From positions 1-29,803 of the IMG/VR virus record IMGVR_UViG_2571042390_000006: a stretch of 29,803 bases of DNA; one strand, written 5' to 3'. The first letter of the stretch is position 1. Every line of letters begins with the position of its first letter. Below are positions 6,277 through 29,103 of the stretch, one piece after another. The notes under the pieces are model-generated. The model was not told where the DNA came from and did not search any database. It worked only from the letters and a program-made list of their open reading frames with translations. The position numbers and the translations under genes were made by a program. The stretch comes from a virus (lineage: Duplodnaviria > Heunggongvirae > Uroviricota > Caudoviricetes).

Positions 6277-9099
6277 ATGACGGCAGAGTACATCAGGGAC
6301 TGGCAACAACCGCGCCACGCAGTGGGGCGTGAAGGAACGGGGATCCCCGCTCCTGAATCCGCGCTTTCCTCCTGGCTGGATGCCTACCGGGCAGAGAACG
6401 AGCGCCGCCAGGAAATGGCTGATGCGGCGTTCTCCGCCACGCCGCTGGGCAACCTGATTAATAAAAGCCTGGACGCACAGGAAAAACAGGACAAAACCAT
6501 CACACTGGCAGGAGACGCCAGAAAACAGGCACGTGGCGCGGTGGATGAAGCCATGGCCTCGCTGCGCCTGCTGCCGTCCTATCTGCGCGATCCGCTTATT
6601 CGCCACCTCTCCTTCCTGCGCAAAAAACAGGAAGCCGATCGCCGGAAAGGCAAAAAGAGCTGGCAGGCTGAACGCTACGCGTGCGGAACCCTGCGCAAAA
6701 TATTCGAACGTCTGGACCGCACCGACCACCGCTGGCTGACACCGGGTTATCGCTCCCTTGCCGGACGCGAACGCCTGGATGATTTGCTTTACCTGCCGCA
6801 GCTCAACAAACACCAGATACAGACGCTGGCCACCATGACGGCGGCGATGTTCAGCAGCACCTTCGAAAAACTCTGCGATGGCTTTGGCGCGACTGATGGC
6901 GAGCTGACCATGGATGTAACGCTGAAGGCTTATCAGATGCTGGCCCGCATGGCGTTACACCTGCACGCCATGCCTCCACATTATGACGCACTGACAACAG
7001 ACAAAGACCGGAGGAACGAACCGGACACGGAGCTGCTGCCGGGCGCAATCCTTCGCCTGACCTGTGCGGAATGGTGGAAACGCAAACTGTGGCTGTTACG
7101 TTGTGAGTGGCGGGAAGAACAACTCCGCGCCGCCTGTCTGGTTTCCAGAAAAACATCCCCCTATCTGAGCCAGGACGCGTTAAGCGAGTTTCGCGCACAG
7201 CGCGAGAAAACACGCGATTTCCTGAAAAGTTTCATGCTGGAAAATGAAGACGGGTTCACGATTGATCTCGAGACGGTGTATTACGCGGGAGTAAGTAACC
7301 CGGTTCACCGTAAGGCAGAAATGATGGCCACCATGAAGGGACTGGAACTTCTGGCCGAAGCCCGTGGCGACAGAGCGGTGTTTCTGACCGTCACCTGCCC
7401 GTCAAAATACCACGCAACAACGGAGAACGGTCATCCGAACCCCAAATGGAACGGGGCCACCATGCGCGACTCCAGCGATTACCTGGTTAACACGTTTTTT
7501 GCGGCGGTCCGCAAAAAACTGAACCGCGACGGCCTGCGCTGGTATGGCATCCGCACGGTGGAGCCTCACCATGACGGCACTGTGCACTGGCATATGATGG
7601 TCTTTGCACATCCGGACGAGATTGAAACCATCGTGTCCCACGTCTGCGATATTGCCATTCAGGAGGACCGCCACGAGCTGGGCGATGACATAACTCCGCG
7701 TTTTAAGGCGGAGTATGTCGACGGCTCAAAAGGCACACCAACCAGCTACATCGCCACCTACATCGGAAAGAACCTGGACAGCCGCGCCGTGGATGGCATC
7801 GACCCGAAAACGGGCAAGCCACGCGTTGACCACGAAACCGGAAAATCAATGGCCGAGAGCGTGGAGCGCGCCATCGGCTGGGCGCGCCTTCACCGGGTCC
7901 GTCAGTTCCAGTTCTTTGGCATCCCCTCCCGTCAGGTGTGGCGTGAACTGCGCCGCCTTGCCAGCCAGATGGCACGCAATCCGGAAGGCCCGCAACGGCT
8001 GAAAGATGATGCAATGGATGCGGTACTCGCTGCCGCCGATGCCGGGTGTTTTGCCACCTACATTGAAAAACAGGGTGGCGTGCTTGTTCCACGCAAGGAC
8101 TACCTGATTCGCACCGCCTACGACCTCGCAGATGAGCTGAACGATTACGGCGAACAGAGCGTACAGATTTACGGGATCTGGTCACCACTCATCGGGGAAT
8201 CCTCCCGTGTGTGCACGCATCCGGATAACTGGAAGCTGGTAAGACGTAAACCAGAACCGGAAGACAACGCCCACGAAAATGGTTTTGACCTTCAGGGCGG
8301 CCCTGCCGCCCCTTGGACTCGTGGCAATAACTGTCCCCGTGTACAGGAAACGGACAACAACGGGACAGAACAGCCGGAAGAACGGCCAGCACTGTGGCCG
8401 CAGCTTCCTGACGGCGTTGATGTGGATGACTGGATGCGCTCACTGAAACGGCACGAACGCCGGGCGCTGATGCGTTCGCTGCGTGACAAACAGGCAAAAA
8501 ACAGCAGTGATGAAATGCAGAGCTGGACACAGAGCCGCAAACAGCAGCGGCCTTTGCCTGATAACCACGAATTACTCGCTAAAGAATGGCGGGAATCTGC
8601 CGAATCTCTCGGCCTGCATATCGGTGAACAGCAGATGCAGCACCTGTTACGGGGCGGCAGCCTGTACGTTGACGGCAGCATCATTGCACCGCAGGGATTT
8701 GAAATTGTACGCAAACCGGATACCCGCCCGGACAGCCGAATCACGCAGCTCTGGCAGCGCCTGAGCCGTAATCACGGCGTAAGCAGCACGGAGATCCGCC
8801 ATAACCCGGTCGCCGGCTATCTGGAACAACTAAGGGCATCAGACCATGAAGCCGCCGCACGCCTGGCATCCACACTTCAGCAAGACCAGAACACCATGAA
8901 AACACCCGTTACCGTACTTTCTGACATGCTGCGCGCCATCCGCGACGCAGAGCACGCACAGAGAATCAGTGAAACAACTGAACGCGCCCACCGCAAAGCA
9001 GACCTGCTGCGGGGTGGCCTGACCAGTGGAAACAAAAAACAGACAGAAACGGGATTCACAAATCCCGTAAATGAGCAAAAAACGCGCCGCGATATATGA
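6277..9099 (+). CDS. A: Replication initiation endonuclease (P2 gpA family, rolling-circle HUH nickase)
   Basis: 940-aa ORF with VEPHHDGTVHWHMMVF (HUH metal-binding) and YIATYIGKN (active-site Tyr) as in P2 A. Longer than P2 A as I recall it, suggesting a C-terminal extension. Confidence 0.88.
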   Translation: MTAEYIRDWQQPRHAVGREGTGIPAPESALSSWLDAYRAENERRQEMADAAFSATPLGNLINKSLDAQEKQDKTITLAGDARKQARGAVDEAMASLRLLPSYLRDPLIRHLSFLRKKQEADRRKGKKSWQAERYACGTLRKIFERLDRTDHRWLTPGYRSLAGRERLDDLLYLPQLNKHQIQTLATMTAAMFSSTFEKLCDGFGATDGELTMDVTLKAYQMLARMALHLHAMPPHYDALTTDKDRRNEPDTELLPGAILRLTCAEWWKRKLWLLRCEWREEQLRAACLVSRKTSPYLSQDALSEFRAQREKTRDFLKSFMLENEDGFTIDLETVYYAGVSNPVHRKAEMMATMKGLELLAEARGDRAVFLTVTCPSKYHATTENGHPNPKWNGATMRDSSDYLVNTFFAAVRKKLNRDGLRWYGIRTVEPHHDGTVHWHMMVFAHPDEIETIVSHVCDIAIQEDRHELGDDITPRFKAEYVDGSKGTPTSYIATYIGKNLDSRAVDGIDPKTGKPRVDHETGKSMAESVERAIGWARLHRVRQFQFFGIPSRQVWRELRRLASQMARNPEGPQRLKDDAMDAVLAAADAGCFATYIEKQGGVLVPRKDYLIRTAYDLADELNDYGEQSVQIYGIWSPLIGESSRVCTHPDNWKLVRRKPEPEDNAHENGFDLQGGPAAPWTRGNNCPRVQETDNNGTEQPEERPALWPQLPDGVDVDDWMRSLKRHERRALMRSLRDKQAKNSSDEMQSWTQSRKQQRPLPDNHELLAKEWRESAESLGLHIGEQQMQHLLRGGSLYVDGSIIAPQGFEIVRKPDTRPDSRITQLWQRLSRNHGVSSTEIRHNPVAGYLEQLRASDHEAAARLASTLQQDQNTMKTPVTVLSDMLRAIRDAEHAQRISETTERAHRKADLLRGGLTSGNKKQTETGFTNPVNEQKTRRDI

Positions 9100-9144
9100 A
9101 GCGCGCATAAAACAGGCAAAAACGGGATTTCAGAATCCCGTAAA
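9047..9144. repeat. Two copies of a 20-bp palindrome ACGGGATT-N4-AATCCCGT (candidate ParR operator / centromere-like site)
   Basis: Copy 1 at about 9049-9068 lies in the last codons of A; copy 2 at about 9122-9141 lies between A and parM. Centres are about 73 bp apart and each sits inside a roughly 38-bp direct repeat. Confidence 0.5.
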
Positions 9145-9175: not shown

Positions 9176-10135
9176 ATGAAAATTTGTATCGACGACGGCT
9201 CCACCAACATCAAGCTGGCATGGACTGAGAACGGCGAACGCCGCAACGCCATCAGCCCGAACAGCTTCAAGTCGGAATGGTCTGCGCCGTTCGGTGGCAC
9301 GCAGCCCGCGAACTACATGCTTGATGGCGTGCGCTATGGTTTTGATCCGGTCAGCGATCGCTTTGTCCAGACAACCGACACGCAATACCAGTACAGCGAT
9401 GTGAATGTCATTGCCATTCATCACGCGCTGGTCAAATCAGGCATCACGCCACAGGAGGTGGATGTGGTTGTCACCCTGCCACTGAGCGAGTATTTCGACA
9501 CAAACGCACAGCCGGACATGGCCAACATCAACCGCAAAAAAGCGAACGTTATGCGCCCGGTGGAGTACCAGAACGGCGAAGCATTCACTATCCGTAACGT
9601 ACGGGTTATGCCTGAATCCATTCCGGCTGGCTTTAAGGCACTGGCTGACATGAGTCCGTTTGAATCCCTGCTGATTGTGGATTTAGGCGGAACCACGCTG
9701 GATGTGGCAAAGGTTCAGGGACAACTGGCAGGTATCAGCCAGGTGTTTTGCGATCCACACGTAGGCGTTTCCCTGATGGCCGATGCCGTACTGTCGGTGA
9801 TGGCCACTAACGGTATGCGTACCAGTCACCACATCGCCAATACCATTATCGAACATCGCCATGATGAAGCCTGGCTGCGCCAGCACATCCACAATGACGC
9901 GCATTACGCCAGCCTGATGGCGGTTATTCGTGAAAAGGAAGAAACACTGAAACAACGCGTGATCCGCGCGCTGGCGGGTTTTTCGGGTTACGGGCGGGTG
10001 ATGGTTGTCGGTGGCGGGGCGGAGATTGTGGCACCCGCTATCCGCGAAGCCTGCGGAGTTAATGCGACTTTCATCGCGGACGGGGTGCCACAGTTTGCTC
10101 TGGTTAATGGGCTGTACGCAATGGACAAGGAGTAA
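9176..10135 (+). CDS. parM: ParM/StbA-family actin-like segregation ATPase
   Basis: 319 aa. N-terminus MKICIDDGSTNIKLAW and the motifs VMPESIPAG, DLGGTTLD and VVGGGAE align with plasmid R1 ParM as I recall it. AAGGA RBS. Confidence 0.82.
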   Translation: MKICIDDGSTNIKLAWTENGERRNAISPNSFKSEWSAPFGGTQPANYMLDGVRYGFDPVSDRFVQTTDTQYQYSDVNVIAIHHALVKSGITPQEVDVVVTLPLSEYFDTNAQPDMANINRKKANVMRPVEYQNGEAFTIRNVRVMPESIPAGFKALADMSPFESLLIVDLGGTTLDVAKVQGQLAGISQVFCDPHVGVSLMADAVLSVMATNGMRTSHHIANTIIEHRHDEAWLRQHIHNDAHYASLMAVIREKEETLKQRVIRALAGFSGYGRVMVVGGGAEIVAPAIREACGVNATFIADGVPQFALVNGLYAMDKE

Positions 10136-10139
10136 ACCA

Positions 10140-10451
10140 ATGACGACACCAACCAGACGGATAAGTTTCTATCTGAAGCCCGCCGCCGTCAAGAACGAAG
10201 GCGAAGCATGCGCCTGGCTGGACAGCCTTACACCAGAAGCCCGCAAAAGCGGCCAACGCGTGGCTTTTCTGGCCGGGCTGGCACTTCTGAAAATGAATCC
10301 GGCAGAGGCTTACCGACTGGCTGCATGGGCTGATGATGAGGCGTTATCAGTGACACAAACCAGGACAGAACGCCCCGCGTCACAGCCAGTATCAGCCGCA
10401 CAGATAACCAGTCAGATGGCCGGAAATATCCGGGCGTTATTTCCCGAATAA
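10140..10451 (+). CDS. parR: ParR-like centromere-binding adaptor (RHH)
   Basis: Internal ATG directly after the parM stop with an AAGGAG RBS. RRISFYLKP...WLDSLTPEARKSGQRVAFLAGLAL...NIRALFPE parallels R1 ParR (RRTIAFKLNP...TLDSIPQGERSRLNRAALTAGLAL...NILRSLFPKE). Confidence 0.7.
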   Translation: MTTPTRRISFYLKPAAVKNEGEACAWLDSLTPEARKSGQRVAFLAGLALLKMNPAEAYRLAAWADDEALSVTQTRTERPASQPVSAAQITSQMAGNIRALFPE

Positions 10452-10514
10452 CACAACATCAGGGCGCATCCGCCCTGATGACTTTAACCCGGGAGCATAA
10501 ACAAGGGGGACACA

Positions 10515-10847
10515 ATGCAACACATTGACAGAGAAAAAGCGCAGCGACTGATTGAGCGGATGGAAGCGCTGGCGAAAGAAGAAAATGTCAACATCCAAAA
10601 AATAGCTGAATGTGGCCAGATAGTTCTTCGTCGTGAAAAAGACCTCAAACAACTGATGTCTGGCGAAACCAGCAAAACATGGACTTCAGGCGAGAAGACG
10701 GTTTATTGCAGTTTCTGCAATAAATCCCAGTACGAAGTCACAAAGGTGATTGCCGGACCGTCTGTTTACATCTGCAATGAGTGCGTGGATTTGTGCAATG
10801 AAATTATCAGGAAAGAAGTGACAGACAAAAAGGAAAAAAACGCATGA
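10515..10847 (+). CDS. Stand-alone ClpX-type C4 zinc-binding-domain protein with N-terminal coiled coil
   Basis: 110 aa. C-terminal [38 protein letters not shown] is near-identical to the N-terminal zinc-binding domain of enterobacterial ClpX ([39 protein letters not shown], from memory). No AAA+ module. AAGGGGGA RBS. Confidence 0.75.
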
Positions 10848-11251
10848 ACAGAAAACAGAAACAAGAGTTGAAATACTTCTTACGTAAAGAAATTGCCAGG
10901 CTTGAAGATGCAGAGTCACAATCATCAGAAATTCCGTTCGGAATGGATATCAACGACGCCAGTATGCTTCAGGCATACCGTATAGCTCAGGCTGCACTAC
11001 AGACAAAACCGTTAAATAACATACATGAAAAGTATGATTATTTTACGGATACCGCTTGCTTGCTGACATCTGAAGAACAAAAGATAGCCCAACTTTTAGG
11101 CGACGCATGGAACCTGTATTTAACGTTGCCAGTTGAGCATCCAATGGGTAGAGATGAATTTTGCCGGGCAATTCATCATTGCCAAAATATGGTGTTGGCA
11201 CGCCCGGCCATCAGGGCGCTGGCCAGGAAGGGGCAAGGCTATAAAAGATAA
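10844..11251 (+). CDS. Hypothetical protein co-translated with the ClpX-ZBD-like gene
   Basis: 135-aa ORF with ATGA overlap to the upstream stop. Coiled-coil-like N-terminus. Followed by a strong terminator. Confidence 0.55.
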
Positions 11252-11255
11252 GTAA

Positions 11256-11282
11256 AACGCCCTCCTCCAGGGCGTTTATTTC
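11256..11282 (+). terminator. Rho-independent terminator
   Basis: AACGCCCT-CCTCC-AGGGCGTT stem-loop followed by TATTTC, a few nt after the 135-aa ORF stop. Confidence 0.65.
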
Positions 11283-11564
11283 AATGCACAATAGTGCACA
11301 AATTTGCACAATTTTTTTGAACGACTTTTTACCCTTCCGGCCCGCATGGCGGCTGGATCCGTCAAGGATCCGTGCGTGCACAAAAAAACGCGTTTTTTCT
11401 GCGCGCAGGTGACGGGGGAACAGCCCGCGTTTCAGGGGGTAAATAGCACTCCCTGAACGATGTCGCAGAGATACAACAGAATGGCTGTATTTCTCACGCT
11501 GAGCGTGAAAAAGACGTGAGGGCTTTTGATTTGATGGGGTGGCAGATAAGGCCGTCAAAATCGC

Positions 11565-11735: not shown

Positions 11736-12782
11736 TCAGGATGTGGGCTGGGTGTCTAACAGTGCGTAAGGGTTAAAGCGGATCACCTCTTCGCCAAGCC
11801 AGTCATTGATGTGCTTCATGGCCTCCATGACAGGCATCAGCTCGTTAATTGCGTAAACCCGCGCGGCCTTCTCCACATCACCAAACGCACTTTTTTCGCC
11901 CGGCATCGCCCCCATCAGTTGCGGCGGAACGCGGTGCGCAGCCAGCACATCATCACGGGATGCCGCCTTAACATTCATGAACTCATCTTTTGCGGTGATC
12001 TGCTGGAACGGCAAAATTTGCACCCCCTCTTTGCCCCCGTTGGGCGCATGAATGAGCACGTTTTTAAATGCACCACCACCACGCGCACCCTGTAACGTTT
12101 CTTTCAGGGAGTCCATGCTTTCGCGGTTTACCTGCGCTGCACCGATGTAGATGATGCACCCGGCGTGGGATCCGTTGTCGTAGTACAGTTTTCTGAACAT
12201 GTCCGCCGAATGAGAAAGGCTGGCCGAGAGTAATGCGCCAAGATATTCCGGCATGCCGTAGATTTCCTGGTTAATATCCGGATTCATCAGGTGGCACACT
12301 TTGCCAGGGCGAAACTGGAACGCGTCCTTGCCATCCTGCACATACCACCATGATTCAAGATCGCTTCCGCGTCGCATGTATTTCGCCAGGGCGTGCCGTA
12401 ATTTAAGCGGTTCGCCGAGCATATTGCTACGAAGCTCAAGGAATGCGTTACCGAACACAAACCAGTCCAGCGCCAGCGCCGAGAAATCCTGCCGGGAAAG
12501 CAGCGGGTGCGGGATGTAGCAACCGAGTAATACATTGCGCTTAAAGTAAAGCGCAGACTGATGCCAGGACGTTTGCCGGGCAGCTCTTGCCAGACCGTAC
12601 CAGTCCACCGGGGTTTCATACCACCGCCCGTTATCAGCACAGTACATATTATCCAGCAGGTCATGCCCGGTCAGGCGATAAGGACCATCAAATGTGAATG
12701 CACTGAGCGATGATTCTTTCCTGAGCGCATCAGCGAGATCAATGCGTGAACTCATGCGCACTTTTTTATTTTTTCTGCTCAT
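11736..12782 (-). CDS. Q: Portal (capsid portal vertex) protein, P2 gpQ family
   Basis: 348 aa. Size, position and overall sequence match P2 Q. Its start overlaps the P stop. Confidence 0.88.
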   Translation of the reverse strand: MSRKNKKVRMSSRIDLADALRKESSLSAFTFDGPYRLTGHDLLDNMYCADNGRWYETPVDWYGLARAARQTSWHQSALYFKRNVLLGCYIPHPLLSRQDFSALALDWFVFGNAFLELRSNMLGEPLKLRHALAKYMRRGSDLESWWYVQDGKDAFQFRPGKVCHLMNPDINQEIYGMPEYLGALLSASLSHSADMFRKLYYDNGSHAGCIIYIGAAQVNRESMDSLKETLQGARGGGAFKNVLIHAPNGGKEGVQILPFQQITAKDEFMNVKAASRDDVLAAHRVPPQLMGAMPGEKSAFGDVEKAARVYAINELMPVMEAMKHINDWLGEEVIRFNPYALLDTQPTS

Positions 12783-15239: not shown

Positions 15240-16181
15240 ATGATTACCCCTGCACAGCAACACTGGCAGAACGTGATGGCGCAGCGCGCAGGCCGGGCGA
15301 ATGAAGGCGTGGATCACGCCGCACGTACCGCGCATGAAGAGGTGCTGTATCGTCTGCGTCTGGCACAGGCCCGACTTAAGGGCGTACAGGCCAGAAGCGC
15401 CAAAGCCGCCATCAAAAAAGAGTTGTTACCGGACTTTTCCGGCTGGATTGAAGGAACGCTGGAGGCTGACGGCGGGCAGCAAGATGAGGTGATTGCCACG
15501 CTGATGGTGTGGGCGATTGACTGCGGCGATCTTCCGCTGGCATTGCGTATTGGTGCGTATGTGGTCCGTCACAACCTCATCATGCCGGATAACTTTGGCC
15601 GTACTGCTGCCACGGTACTGACCGAAGAAATCTGCAACCCGGTACTGACGCAGGCCGGGACGGATGCCGACGCGGATTTGTCCGCCTTTATCGAACCACT
15701 GGACACACTTTGGGAAATTGTCGCCAACCAGGATATGCCGGACGAAGTGCGCGCCAAATTATGCAAGGCGTGCGCCTTTGCCCGCCGTGGCCTGAGCGAT
15801 GCGGACAGCATGGCCTCATCACTGAAGCTGCTGCGCGAAGCGATGCACCTGAACCCGAACGCAGGTGTGAAACGCGAGATTGCAACCCTTTCCCGCGCCC
15901 TGAAAAAAGCCGATTCCGCAGCCGAACCAGAAGACGCCAGCACACCGCAGGCGCAGGACGAAAGCAGCAAAAGTAAAAAGACAACGCGGAAGCCTGCAAC
16001 ACGAAAAACCACCGCGACGCAGAAGGCGAAGCGCGGTTACACCGACACAAAGGGACCATCAGCGCACTGCGCCGGGCCATTGAGCCGCTGGGATACCTCA
16101 TTCGCGTGTCTGAGTGGTGGGAGTTCGACGGCGAACCCGGAACATTCAAGGTTGATGTTGGCACGCTGGACAGTGGTGTGA
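15240..16181 (+). CDS. M: Terminase small (endonuclease) subunit, P2 gpM family; 3' end uncertain
   Basis: N-terminal 250 aa match P2 M, including the basic tail KKTTRKPATRKTTATQKAKRG. The ORF then runs on as junk-like sequence overlapping the L-like frame. Confidence 0.7.
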   Translation: MITPAQQHWQNVMAQRAGRANEGVDHAARTAHEEVLYRLRLAQARLKGVQARSAKAAIKKELLPDFSGWIEGTLEADGGQQDEVIATLMVWAIDCGDLPLALRIGAYVVRHNLIMPDNFGRTAATVLTEEICNPVLTQAGTDADADLSAFIEPLDTLWEIVANQDMPDEVRAKLCKACAFARRGLSDADSMASSLKLLREAMHLNPNAGVKREIATLSRALKKADSAAEPEDASTPQAQDESSKSKKTTRKPATRKTTATQKAKRGYTDTKGPSAHCAGPLSRWDTSFACLSGGSSTANPEHSRLMLARWTVV

Positions 16182-16339
16182 CCGAGGAAATGTATCTGGA
16201 AATGGAACGGCTGATTGCCGATGCCAAACCCGCAAGTCGCCACCTTATCGGCCTGAACATTATCCAGGACATTCCCGGCTATCTGTATACAGGCGGTGTG
16301 GTCTGTGATGGTGATGTTATTACTGTTTATCCCGGATAA
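16106..16339 (+). CDS. Probable head completion protein fragment (gpL-like), start unresolved
   Basis: The reading frame is open from about 15977 but has no ATG before the GTG at 16106. It ends 10 nt before H. Shorter than P2 L. Confidence 0.35.
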   Translation: MSEWWEFDGEPGTFKVDVGTLDSGVTEEMYLEMERLIADAKPASRHLIGLNIIQDIPGYLYTGGVVCDGDVITVYPG

Positions 16340-19007: not shown

Positions 19008-19624
19008 TGGCATTCAGAATGAGTGAACAATCACGTACTGTAAAAATTTATAACCTGCTGGCCGGAACTAATGAGTTTATTGGTGAAGGTGACGCATATA
19101 TTCCACCTCATACAGGGCTGCCAGCTAATTCTACAGATATCGCCCCACCGGAAATTCCTGCTGGCTTTGTGGCAATTTTTAACAGTGAAAATGAATCGTG
19201 GAATATTGTTGAAGACCATCGTGGTAAAACGGTCTATGACGTGGCATCGGGGGACGCGTTGTTTATTTCTGAACCCGGACCGCTACCAGAGAATGTCACC
19301 TGGTTGTCGCCAGCAGGGGAATATCAGAAGTGGGACGGCGTATCCTGGGTGAAGGATGAGGAAGCAGAAAAGCTGTTTCGGATACGGGAAGCGGAAGAGA
19401 AAAAGGCAAGGTTGATCCAGGAGGCAACAGATAACATCGCAATTCTGCAGGATGCAGTTAATCTTGAAATAGCAACAAACGAGGAAAATTCACAACTGGA
19501 TTCCTGGAGAAAATACAGAGTATTAGTGAGTAGAATTGACACCAGTACAGCTCCGGATATCGTATGGCCAGAGCTGATGAATCAGGGTTATGTGCGGGAG
19601 GACGAGCAGATAACTTCAGACTGA
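19007..19624 (+). CDS. G: Tail fiber assembly chaperone (gpG/Tfa family)
   Basis: 205 aa. Start overlaps the H stop (TAATG). C-terminal region [23 protein letters not shown] is typical of Tfa proteins. Confidence 0.8.
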
Positions 19625-20151
19625 AATTTAGTGATGAATGTTGAATCATCAGGAATATCATGCAATACCAATGCATGAGCACCTATTGTGACATTGTTTC
19701 CTATACGCACTTTGCCACCAAGAATGGTGGCATTACAACCAATGGTCACATTATGTCCTATAACAATATCCATATCATTAAAATCACCACGTAGCCCAAT
19801 AGTTACCCCCGGTTTTATTGAACAATTTTCACCGATTGTTACTTTGTGACCGATAACAACACTGTTGAGATAAGAAATATCAAAGCCTTTCCCTATATTT
19901 ACAGTTAAAGGGACTGTTACATTATATTTATCAAGAATGAAACGTTCTATTTTCCCCGCAATCTTCCGGCAGTATCCGCCTTTATCAAAAAGGTATTTGG
20001 CTATGCGCCACCAAAATAAATAACGAAGTCTTCTATGTTTTATTGCGCGAACAATTGCCTTTCGCCAGGAGAAAGGACGCTCGCTACCGATTACTTCATA
20101 GTGAATACAGTCTTTAAGTTCATTAATATTCATATCTCTATTATTCAGCAT
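19588..20151 (-). CDS. Hexapeptide-repeat (left-handed beta-helix) acetyltransferase, CysE/WcaB-like
   Basis: 187 aa with repeated [LIV]-G-x-x-x-x hexapeptides ([22 protein letters not shown]...[34 protein letters not shown]). AT-rich. Convergent with G and overlaps its 3' end. Occupies the position of Z/fun in P2. Confidence 0.78.
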
Positions 20152-27648: not shown

Positions 27649-27789
27649 ATGTCGCAAAAATCGCTTACGGCCATCACGTTCTGCGTGACGGTAATCCTCA
27701 TCATCTGGATGCTGCACGGTTCGCTGTGTGAAATACGGATGAGCTTCTGGGGAGCGGAGTTTGCGGCGTTCTTACAGTGTAAGCAGTAA
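27649..27789 (+). CDS. Hok/Gef-family type I toxin (46 aa)
   Basis: AAGGAG RBS. Product MSQKSLTAITFCVTVILIIWMLHGSLCEIRMSFWGAEFAAFLQCKQ has an N-terminal TM helix, the SLCEIR signature and an AAFL.CK tail as in HokA/Hok. Below the ORF-track size cut-off. Confidence 0.7.
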   Translation: MSQKSLTAITFCVTVILIIWMLHGSLCEIRMSFWGAEFAAFLQCKQ

Positions 27790-28800: not shown

Positions 28801-28887
28801 TGGTACCCGGAGCGGGACTTGAACCCGCACAGCGCGAACGCCGAGGGATTTTAAATCCCTTGTGTCTACCGATTCCACCATCCGGGC
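28801..28887 (-). tRNA. leuZ: tRNA-Leu (anticodon UAA)
   Basis: Reverse complement reads GCCCGGATGGTGGAATCGGTAGACACAAGGGATTTAAAATCCCTCGGCG...GGGTACCA: cloverleaf, long variable arm, anticodon loop UUUAAAA, 3' CCA. Confidence 0.95.
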
Positions 28888-28899
28888 TCGGGAAGAAAG

Positions 28900-28973
28900 T
28901 GGAGGCGCGTTCCGGAGTCGAACCGGACTAGACGGATTTGCAATCCGCTACATAACCGCTTTGTTAACGCGCC
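28900..28973 (-). tRNA. cysT: tRNA-Cys (anticodon GCA)
   Basis: Reverse complement reads GGCGCGTTAACAAAGCGGTTATGTAGCGGATTGCAAATCCGTCTAGTCCGGTTCGACTCCGGAACGCGCCTCCA. Confidence 0.95.
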
Positions 28974-29027
28974 AAATTCTTCAGGCCTTTCAGCCAGACA
29001 TCCGCTTGAGGCCGATGTCTTTTAAAC

Positions 29028-29103
<76 letters not shown>

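What the first reader, a model, noticed from the sequence alone, without database searches (positions are those of the whole stretch)
10515..11282. Stand-alone ClpX zinc-binding-domain mimic in a two-gene operon at the A/Q hotspot
The 110-aa product of 10515..10847 ends in a 38-residue segment ([38 protein letters not shown]) that matches the N-terminal C4 zinc-binding domain of enterobacterial ClpX almost residue for residue, with all four Cys conserved. The AAA+ unfoldase body is absent and the domain is fused to an N-terminal coiled-coil segment instead. Its stop overlaps the start of a 135-aa ORF with no recognisable domain, and the pair ends at a strong terminator. In ClpX this domain dimerises and docks the adaptor SspB and N-domain-dependent substrates, so a free copy could act as a decoy, dominant-negative partner or adaptor that retargets host ClpXP. 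The pair sits where P2 carries old/tin, a position known for anti-phage cargo. I do not know of a described phage system built around a detached ClpX N-domain.
Basis: partly seen in the sequence, partly recalled or inferred. Interest (0 to 1): 0.8.

Follow-up and report, generated by a model that had tools for sequence, protein, structure and literature searches.

The report
Phage copy of ClpX's docking domain
A defective P2-like prophage of E. coli carries a small gene whose product is a free-standing copy of the zinc-binding docking domain of the host protease motor ClpX joined to a phage-specific helical hairpin; it most likely acts as a decoy for ClpX's adaptors and substrates, but this has never been tested.

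Summary
The 110-aa product of 10515..10847 has a true ClpX zinc-binding domain (ZBD): Pfam PF06689 E=6.8e-18, 79% identical to E. coli ClpX, all four Cys kept, model 0.7 Å from the ZBD crystal structures. It has no AAA+ body. The N-terminal half is a confident helical hairpin found only fused to a ZBD.

The family occurs in P2-like prophages of E. coli and Salmonella and in D6/P1-like phage-plasmids. Here it is cargo of the gpA–gpQ hotspot.

The "two-gene system" reading fails. ORF2 is absent next to most relatives. ORF2 is itself a deletion chimera joining codon 56 of a P88-type gene to codon ~10 of a separate 87-aa gene.

Synonymous sites against host clpX are saturated while the protein stays ClpX-like. 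That indicates an old capture under purifying selection, and the F16/I46 binding patch is kept.

Best explanation (about 0.45): a soluble dimeric decoy of the ClpX N-domain that titrates N-domain-dependent adaptors and substrates. Isolated ZBD already does this in vitro.

The gene is named by PGAP and listed in a 2022 hotspot table. My ten full-text searches of the held paper library found no functional study. I rate it a new variant of a known kind, interest about 0.6.

The parts
10457..10480 (+). 10-bp-stem hairpin in the 63-nt leader between parR and the ZBD gene; no U-tract on the + strand
   Evidence: Fold of 10450-10514: -22.9 kcal/mol, z=-4.6. The hairpin and the ribosome-binding region are kept in prophage CT30, where an Ead/Ea22-like gene replaces the ZBD gene. 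No sigma-70-like promoter was found upstream on the + strand.
10505..10509 (+). Shine-Dalgarno GGGGG, 5 nt before the ATG
   Evidence: Read directly from the sequence.
10515..10847 (+). Gene for the 110-aa stand-alone ClpX-ZBD protein (identical to WP_001163782)
10515..10664 (+). N-terminal domain (residues 1-50): two-helix hairpin specific to this family; E17, E23 and R40 are invariant
   Evidence: AF2 gives H6-23 and H27-48 at pLDDT 83-96. A profile of this part finds only 17 proteins among 1.84 billion representatives; the eight hits I retrieved are N-domain+ZBD proteins or fragments of such proteins.
10665..10700 (+). Flexible linker (residues 51-62)
   Evidence: pLDDT below 50 for residues 53-59. 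Its length varies across the family.
10701..10817 (+). ClpX-type C4 zinc-binding domain (residues 63-101); Cys65, 68, 87 and 90
   Evidence: Pfam PF06689 E=6.8e-18; PDB 1ovx/2ds5 E about 1e-19; Foldseek rmsd 0.7 Å at 78% identity; 79% amino-acid and 68% nucleotide identity to K-12 clpX.
10818..10847 (+). Short charged C-terminal tail (VTDKKEKNA) and stop codon, overlapping the ORF2 start
   Evidence: The tail differs between P88-type variants.
10844..11011 (+). ORF2, N-part (codons 1-56), shared with P88-type ORF2 proteins that carry other C-termini
   Evidence: Identical in P88, PhiR44_2 and two E. coli prophages up to residue 56; phrog_660 E=6e-7.
11012..11251 (+). ORF2, C-part (codons 57-135): a domain that elsewhere is a separate 75-87-aa gene of P2-like prophages; conserved LPVEHP...EFCRAIH.CQ motif
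   Evidence: phrog_13916 E=8.7e-30. The junction lies at 11010-11012. No Pfam or PDB match.
11255..11277 (+). Intrinsic-terminator-like hairpin ending the early-strand genes before the cos-proximal non-coding stretch
   Evidence: The same terminator follows the stand-alone 87-aa gene in L049.

Best explanation
The 110-aa protein is a phage-encoded soluble mimic of the ClpX N-terminal domain. It is made without the unfoldase body and, like the host domain, probably forms a zinc-dependent dimer. The family-specific helical hairpin probably reinforces the dimer or adds a second contact. I infer that it acts as a competitive decoy. It would bind the proteins that normally dock on the ClpX N-domain: the adaptors SspB and RssB, trigger factor, and N-domain-dependent substrates such as lambda O, MuA and UmuD. 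This would dampen adaptor-assisted and N-domain-dependent ClpXP proteolysis while leaving direct pore recognition intact. It works as a single gene and is probably read through from the upstream gpA/parMR transcription. ORF2 is an unrelated neighbouring cargo gene. Shown here: domain identity, fold, conservation pattern, single-gene distribution and hotspot position. Inferred: dimerisation, ligand binding, competition, and the benefit to the phage.
For: (1) The domain is true ClpX ZBD by sequence and by model. (2) Against K-12 clpX, amino-acid identity is 79% but third codon positions are only 41% identical, with pS=0.95 and pN=0.16. blastn does not find host clpX. The copy is therefore old and kept ClpX-like by purifying selection. 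(3) Family ZBDs are 54-90% identical to E. coli ClpX, 66% to each other on average, and only 41% in the N-domain. Per-site variability correlates with that of real ClpX domains, rho=0.54, p=4e-4. (4) F16 and I46, the hydrophobic side pocket reported to overlap the lambda O site and the region bound by TF, SspB and RssB (PMC7804408), are kept here; F16 is invariant in the family. (5) Purified free ZBD inhibits RssB-mediated sigma-S degradation by ClpXP in vitro (PMC7226468). (6) The gene occurs alone, with unrelated neighbours, in P2-like prophages and D6-like phage-plasmids, so it needs no partner gene. (7) The N-domain is found only fused to a ZBD, so the two halves act together.
Against: There is no experimental evidence for this protein. 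Some family members (D6-type, P0160) change residues that are invariant in the ClpX set, such as P31, Y34 and N44, so a full ClpX-like surface is not required everywhere. The role of the hairpin is unexplained, and a pure decoy would not obviously need it. Expression timing is unknown because no own promoter was found. The ClpX comparison set was biased towards sequences similar to the query. I could not run multimer modelling, and the ZBD part of the monomer model is only moderate (pLDDT 64-82).
Confidence: 0.45

Rival explanations
1. Hijacker by heterodimerisation. The phage ZBD pairs with the ZBD of newly made ClpX subunits and so plants the helical hairpin on the host machine. The hairpin then either blocks the N-domain platform (dominant-negative) or recruits a specific phage or host protein for unfolding or degradation (a new adaptor).
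For: Positions I take to be core and interface positions are nearly unchanged relative to ClpX, with only L12V- and L27V-type substitutions. The hairpin is a conserved, exclusive partner of the ZBD, which fits an effector or recruiting module. ClpX ZBD is a constitutive dimer (PMC5890618).
Against: ClpX ZBD dimers are very stable and form within one hexamer, so exchange with a free phage dimer may be inefficient (my own knowledge). No candidate target of the hairpin was identified; its profile finds nothing outside the family.
Confidence: 0.15
2. Repurposed scaffold. The ZBD serves only as a zinc-dependent dimerisation module, as in the anti-sigma factor CsfB. The real activity lies in the hairpin or a new surface that binds a target unrelated to ClpXP, for example a transcription, replication or partition factor, or a defence protein.
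For: CsfB shows that a ClpX-NTD-like treble-clef dimer can be a stand-alone regulator (PMC5890618). PF06689 occurs in other architectures: sigma factors, 136-aa actinobacterial-looking proteins and 65-aa Pseudomonas phage proteins. Several ClpX-invariant positions (for example P31, Y34, N44) vary within the phage family.
Against: CsfB is only about 20% identical to ClpX, whereas this protein is 79% identical and keeps the F16/I46 patch. Dimerisation alone would not demand that. Divergent lineages stay closer to ClpX than to each other.
Confidence: 0.2
3. Two-gene anti-phage or toxin-antitoxin module: the ZBD protein and ORF2 act together as hotspot defence cargo.
For: Overlapping stop and start, a shared terminator, and a location in the gpA-gpQ hotspot where old/tin and validated defence systems sit (PMC9122126). 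The ORF2 N-part follows the ZBD gene in 21 of 34 P88-type loci.
Against: No PADLOC match. ORF2 is absent next to all more distant family members. ORF2 here is a deletion fusion of two genes, and only 14 of about 215 E. coli genomes with the ZBD gene have this version. The ORF2 C-domain occurs without any ZBD gene in Pectobacterium and Yersinia prophages.
Confidence: 0.07
4. Decaying passenger: a captured clpX fragment with no current function.
For: The prophage in this window is defective.
Against: An intact ORF is conserved across P2-like and P1-like elements, with pN much lower than pS. It is present in 215 of 5426 complete E. coli genomes and about 94 plasmid records.
Confidence: 0.03

Closest known systems
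[quoted passage not shown]
   Same: Same Pfam domain. 79% identity over 39 residues, four Cys ligands, F16/I46 patch kept, model rmsd 0.7 Å.
   Different: Not attached to an AAA+ unfoldase. It lies at the C-terminus of a 110-aa protein, after a phage-specific helical hairpin. It is encoded by temperate phages, and the DNA has long diverged from host clpX.
Recombinant isolated ZBD used as a competitor in ClpXP assays
   Same: A free ZBD without the motor. In vitro it binds RssB and inhibits sigma-S turnover (PMC7226468). This is the activity proposed here.
   Different: That is a laboratory construct. This is a natural, conserved phage gene with an extra domain, and its activity is untested.
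Anti-adaptors IraP, IraM and IraD of E. coli
   Same: Small proteins that block adaptor-mediated ClpXP degradation by binding RssB. This is the expected functional outcome if the decoy titrates RssB.
   Different: No homology: the N-domain profile against IraP gives hhalign probability 1.5%. The Ira proteins do not mimic ClpX and are specific for RssB.
CsfB (Gin), anti-sigma factor of Bacillus subtilis
   Same: A stand-alone small protein built on a dimeric treble-clef zinc finger like the ClpX NTD (PMC5890618).
   Different: Only about 20% identical to ClpX with a different surface. It binds sigma factors and is not phage-borne.
Phage-encoded modulators of host AAA+ proteases (T4 PinA and T7 Gp4.5 against Lon; lambda RexB against ClpP-dependent degradation), cited from my own knowledge
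   Same: Small phage proteins that alter host proteolysis to the phage's benefit.
   Different: None is a copy of a domain of the protease itself, and none targets the ClpX N-domain platform.
Other stand-alone ZBD proteins of phages (e.g. the 65-aa 'Clp protease' of Pseudomonas phage PP9W2, phrog_12435)
   Same: A detached ClpX-type ZBD in a phage genome.
   Different: They lack the N-terminal hairpin and are only about 46-50% identical. They are equally uncharacterised.

Membership tests
Pfam PF06689 (zf-C4_ClpX) | Score above the gathering threshold over the whole 39-position model | tested here: met
   64.7 bits against 27; model positions 2-38 of 39.
Pfam PF06689 (zf-C4_ClpX) | Four zinc-ligand cysteines (CxxC...CxxC) | tested here: met
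   C65, C68, C87 and C90 align with ClpX C14, C17, C36 and C39.
Pfam PF06689 (zf-C4_ClpX) | Zinc binding and dimer formation | not testable with these tools
   Only a monomer model without metal was available.
ClpX unfoldase (TIGR00382 / NF003745) | AAA+ module with Walker motifs, pore loops and IGF loop | tested here: not met
   The protein is 110 aa. TIGR00382 scores 51 bits against a cut-off of 370.75, matching positions 6-54 of 414 only.
PHROG 6797 (unknown function): the hairpin+ZBD family | Full-length match to the family profile | tested here: met
   E=2.1e-58, residues 1-106 on profile positions 5-107 of 107. The same architecture is seen in all relatives examined.
P2-like gpA-gpQ (cos-proximal) hotspot cargo | Lies between replication gene A and portal gene Q, and is replaced by other genes in closely related prophages | tested here: met
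   Layout. parMR prophages occur in 1307 genomes but the ZBD gene in about 215. Alternative cargo is shown. The hotspot is defined in PMC9122126.
Known anti-phage defence systems (PADLOC-DB 2.0) | Match to any defence-protein model | tested here: not met
   No match for the ZBD protein. ORF2 gives only a weak partial RT_UG36 hit at E=0.012.
Two-gene toxin-antitoxin or defence module | The two genes are conserved together across relatives | tested here: not met
   ORF2 is a chimera.
TraR/DksA-type phage C4 zinc finger (TIGR02419) | Match to the family model | tested here: not met
   E=0.53, 10.9 bits against a cut-off of 59.7.
Anti-adaptor IraP | Sequence homology of the helical N-domain to IraP | tested here: not met
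   hhalign probability 1.5%.
ClpXP competitor or anti-adaptor (functional class) | Binds ClpX N-domain ligands and inhibits their delivery | not testable with these tools
   Only indirect support: a conserved patch and in vitro precedent with isolated ZBD.

The most novel reading that the evidence does not exclude
Temperate enterobacterial phages (P2-like and D6/P1-like) carry a dedicated family of ClpX N-domain mimics. These reprogram host ClpXP by molecular mimicry, as a natural competitive anti-adaptor. It would titrate SspB, RssB and N-domain-dependent substrates. The effect would be to stabilise sigma-S or phage proteins, or, from the prophage, to exclude phages that need the ClpX N-domain, such as Mu. 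This would be the first natural regulator of an AAA+ protease that is a detached copy of the protease's own substrate-docking domain.
Probability: 0.4. Interest if true: 0.8.

Novelty: new variant of a known kind. Interest (0 to 1): 0.6.

Why it matters
ClpXP substrate choice in E. coli is steered largely through the N-domain platform, which serves SspB, RssB, trigger factor, lambda O, MuA and UmuD. A natural, widespread phage protein that copies this platform would show that viruses tune host proteolysis by mimicking the docking site rather than blocking the motor or the peptidase. It would give a genetically encoded, selective inhibitor of adaptor-dependent ClpXP degradation. It would also link the P2 hotspot to the control of sigma-S, SOS or replication-protein turnover, or to exclusion of ClpX-dependent phages. 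The predictions are concrete and cheap to test with existing ClpXP assays.

Tried and rejected
(1) Recent capture from host clpX: rejected. blastn finds no host clpX and synonymous sites are saturated.

(2) Generic zinc ribbon or TraR-like finger: rejected.

(3) Known defence system: no PADLOC match.

(4) Obligate pairing with ORF2: rejected by context and co-occurrence.

(5) Obligate link to the ParMR partition genes: rejected. Salmonella and other E. coli relatives and the D6-like elements lack parMR next to the gene, and most parMR prophages lack the ZBD gene.

(6) N-domain related to the anti-adaptor IraP: rejected.

(7) N-domain present in other architectures that could reveal its function: none found in 1.84 billion representatives.

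(8) Function of the ORF2 C-domain: no Pfam or PDB match even with a profile. The AF2 model is too poor (pLDDT 56) for a fold search, so none was run. The PHROG label 'DNA ligase' and the GenBank label 'carboxylate--amine ligase' have no support in any domain search here.

(9) Own promoter for the ZBD gene: none detected by the consensus scan.

(10) Literature: ten full-text searches found no functional study of a stand-alone phage ZBD. Thibault et al. 2006 (PMC1693814) was not held, so residue-level SspB and lambda O contact maps could not be checked beyond F16/I46.

Full report
**Where the window comes from.** The window is 100% identical to a prophage in E. coli O6:H16 strain 2014EL-1346-6. 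It belongs to the P88 group of P2-like phages (Peduoviridae, Xuanwuvirus). Around the finding the order is:
- replication gene A, 6277-9099
- parM, 9176-10135
- parR/stbB, 10140-10451
- the ZBD gene, 10515-10847
- ORF2, 10844-11251
- a terminator, 11255-11277
- about 450 nt of non-coding DNA
- portal gene Q on the other strand, 11736-12782

**The observation.** The 110-aa product matches Pfam zf-C4_ClpX at E=6.8e-18, 64.7 bits against a cut-off of 27. It matches the solved ZBD of E. coli ClpX at E about 1e-19. Over the 39 codons from the residue before YCSFC to IIRKE it is 79% identical to K-12 ClpX, with all four cysteines kept. The AF2 model of this part lies 0.7-0.8 Å from 2DS5, 2DS6 and 2DS8. 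The protein has no AAA+ body: the ClpX equivalog model scores 51 bits where 370.75 are required. The stop/start overlap with ORF2 and the terminator (-13.4 kcal/mol, z=-4.3) are also present.

**The rest of the protein.** Residues 1-50 are modelled with high confidence (pLDDT 83-96) as two helices, 6-23 and 27-48. A disordered linker joins them to the ZBD. A profile of this N-terminal part, searched against 1.84 billion representative proteins, found only 17 proteins. The eight hits I retrieved are hairpin+ZBD proteins or truncated or frameshifted fragments of such proteins. The two halves therefore form one exclusive architecture, which is PHROG 6797 with function unknown. E17, E23 and R40 are invariant in the hairpin.

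**Distribution.** The gene is present in 215 of 5426 complete E. coli genomes. Relatives with the same architecture at 34-54% identity occur in several settings:
- Downstream of gene A in other P2-like prophages of Salmonella and E. coli and in P2-like viral contigs of unidentified host, none with parMR beside the gene.
- In D6/P1-like phage-plasmids, among Ead/Ea22-type accessory genes; about 94 plasmid records carry a full-length copy.

IMG/VR holds at least 479 contigs with a ZBD relative. Some of these are full-length ClpX. Shorter stand-alone ZBDs also exist in Pseudomonas and other phages.

**Is it hotspot cargo?** Yes. The parMR cassette is found in 1307 E. coli genomes, far more than carry the ZBD gene. 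In close relatives the DNA after parR instead carries an Ead/Ea22-like gene behind the same hairpin and ribosome-binding leader, or a reversed DUF4760 cassette, or other genes. Rousset et al. 2022 define the gpA-gpQ interval as a hotspot. Their Table S5A lists 'StbA + Plasmid_stab_B + zf-C4_ClpX + hypothetical', including this exact protein accession. Their main text never mentions ClpX, and it does not identify the five cloned loci that gave no defence, so I cannot tell whether this locus was among them.

**Is it a two-gene system?** No.
- The genes downstream of the Salmonella, second E. coli, D6 and pAVS0223-B relatives are unrelated to ORF2.
- Among 66 family members in the IMG/VR loci, the ORF2 N-part follows in 21. 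The ORF2 C-part is fused as in the window in only 3, and all 32 more distant members lack both parts.
- ORF2 is a chimera. Codons 1-56 are identical to P88-type ORF2 proteins that continue differently.
- Codons 57-135 are the body of a gene that elsewhere stands alone, at 75-87 aa. It sits right after gene A in Pectobacterium and Yersinia prophages, and two genes after the ZBD gene in L049.
- The DNA junction lies at 11010-11012.
- Only 14 E. coli genomes have this fused version.
- The C-domain has a strongly conserved LPVEHP...EFCRAIH.CQ motif but no Pfam or PDB relative, and its model is poor.

**How the ZBD has evolved.** Against K-12 clpX, nucleotide identity is 68% and third positions are 41% identical. 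The proportion of synonymous differences is 0.95, against 0.16 for non-synonymous ones. blastn does not detect host clpX from this DNA. The copy is old and its protein sequence has been held in place.

Across the family the ZBD is 54-90% identical to E. coli ClpX. That is more than members resemble each other (66% on average) and far more than their hairpins do (41%). Site-by-site variability correlates with that of real ClpX domains, rho=0.54. That ClpX set was biased towards query-like sequences.

F16 and I46 form the hydrophobic side pocket reported to overlap the lambda O site and the region bound by trigger factor, SspB and RssB (PMC7804408). Both are kept here. Some lineages (D6-type, P0160) do alter residues that are invariant in ClpX, so the mimicry is not equally strict everywhere.

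**Most likely mechanism.** I propose a soluble, probably dimeric decoy of the ClpX N-domain that competes with ClpX for its docking partners. The key precedent is experimental: isolated ClpX ZBD added in trans inhibits RssB-mediated sigma-S degradation by ClpXP and suffices to bind RssB (PMC7226468). From my own knowledge of Wojtyra et al. 2003, the ZBD is also the primary binding site for lambda O and SspB. It is required for lambda O and MuA degradation but not for GFP-ssrA degradation.

A phage decoy would therefore selectively weaken adaptor- and N-domain-dependent proteolysis. Possible pay-offs, all inferred:
- protection of phage proteins
- sigma-S stabilisation
- interference with antitoxin or SOS-protein turnover
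- from a prophage, exclusion of ClpX-dependent phages such as Mu

I put this explanation at about 0.45.

**Rivals.**
- Heterodimerisation with ClpX, turning the hairpin into an inhibitor or adaptor on the host machine: 0.15.
- The ZBD used merely as a dimerising scaffold for an unrelated target, as in the anti-sigma factor CsfB (PMC5890618): 0.2. This is weakened by the far higher identity to ClpX.
- A two-gene defence or TA module with ORF2: 0.07.
- A functionless relic: 0.03.

**Expression.** No sigma-70-like promoter precedes the gene. The 63-nt leader holds a strong hairpin without a U-tract, and the leader is conserved when the cargo differs. Read-through from the gpA/parMR transcript is the simplest reading. 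Whether the gene is on in the lysogen is unknown.

**Comparison with known systems, and novelty.** The protein is a member of Pfam PF06689 and PHROG 6797. It is not a ClpX, not a TraR/DksA finger, not a PADLOC defence protein and not related to IraP. PGAP already names it. Older records call it 'carboxylate--amine ligase', which no search here supports. [quoted passage not shown] Ten literature searches found no functional study.

I class it as a new variant of a known kind: a phage modulator of a host protease, here by copying the protease's own docking domain. Interest is about 0.6. The domain identification is ordinary and already annotated. The family-level picture and the testable mimicry mechanism are not.

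Noticed in passing
window 10844-11251, junction at 11010-11012: ORF2 is an in-frame fusion made by a deletion. It joins codon 56 of a P88-type ORF2 to about codon 10 of a separate 87-aa gene ([20 protein letters not shown]...) that stands alone in L049. The crossover lies in a few bases of shared sequence.
   Followed up: yes
window 11012-11248; alignment A6: The ORF2 C-domain family (75-87 aa, usually right after gene A in P2-like prophages of Hafnia, Enterobacter, Pectobacterium and Yersinia) has invariant E, H, C, H and Q residues in LPVEHP...EFCRAIH.CQ, plus an upstream Cys. This could be a small metal site. It has no Pfam or PDB relative, and the PHROG label 'DNA ligase' looks unfounded.
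   Followed up: partly
window 9176-10451: An integrated P2-like prophage carries a ParM/ParR (StbA/StbB) actin-type plasmid partition cassette between gene A and the hotspot. It is present in 1307 of 5426 complete E. coli genomes. Rousset et al. 2022 noted it and suggested plasmid-like maintenance.
   Followed up: partly
window 9049-9068 and 9122-9141: Two near-identical 20-bp palindromes, ACGGGATT-N4-AATCCCGT, lie 73 bp apart. One is inside the end of gene A and one is in the A-parM spacer. They may be ParR (parC-like) sites or transcript-end hairpins.
   Followed up: no
window 11285-11314: Three tandem 10-bp repeats, TGCACAA(N3), directly follow the terminator. They lie at the start of the roughly 450-nt non-coding, cos-proximal stretch before gene Q.
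   Followed up: no
window 15240-16339: The prophage is defective. PGAP marks a truncated terminase small subunit (gpM) abutting a truncated tail protein I, so a large block of head-completion, lysis and baseplate genes is missing.
   Followed up: no
window 19588-20151 (- strand): A serine-acetyltransferase-like gene sits just after the tail-fibre assembly gene. This is a typical moron position and may encode a surface-modifying function.
   Followed up: no
window 27649-27789 and 28801-29103: A Hok/Gef-family toxin gene lies near the prophage end. It is followed by a tRNA-Leu/Cys/Gly cluster and pgsA, which marks the integration site region.
   Followed up: no
L033 4398-4922 and L010 6398-6922: The same 174-aa protein (MKKYEYMLMKEALR...) follows two ZBD genes that are only about 54% identical to each other, each time after a gap of about 62-65 nt. 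This may be a recurrent neighbour or a shared recombination module.
   Followed up: no
L049 4330-4686: In some P88-type prophages a 118-aa protein lies between the ZBD gene and the stand-alone 87-aa gene. I judged it ASCH-like by eye only and did not test this. It shows that the hotspot is assembled from small interchangeable genes.
   Followed up: no
proteins P0098, P0071, P0053: A separate family of about 136-aa proteins has an N-terminal ClpX-type ZBD and a C-terminal part that looks helix-turn-helix-like. It is common in metagenomes and is another uncharacterised stand-alone use of this domain.
   Followed up: no
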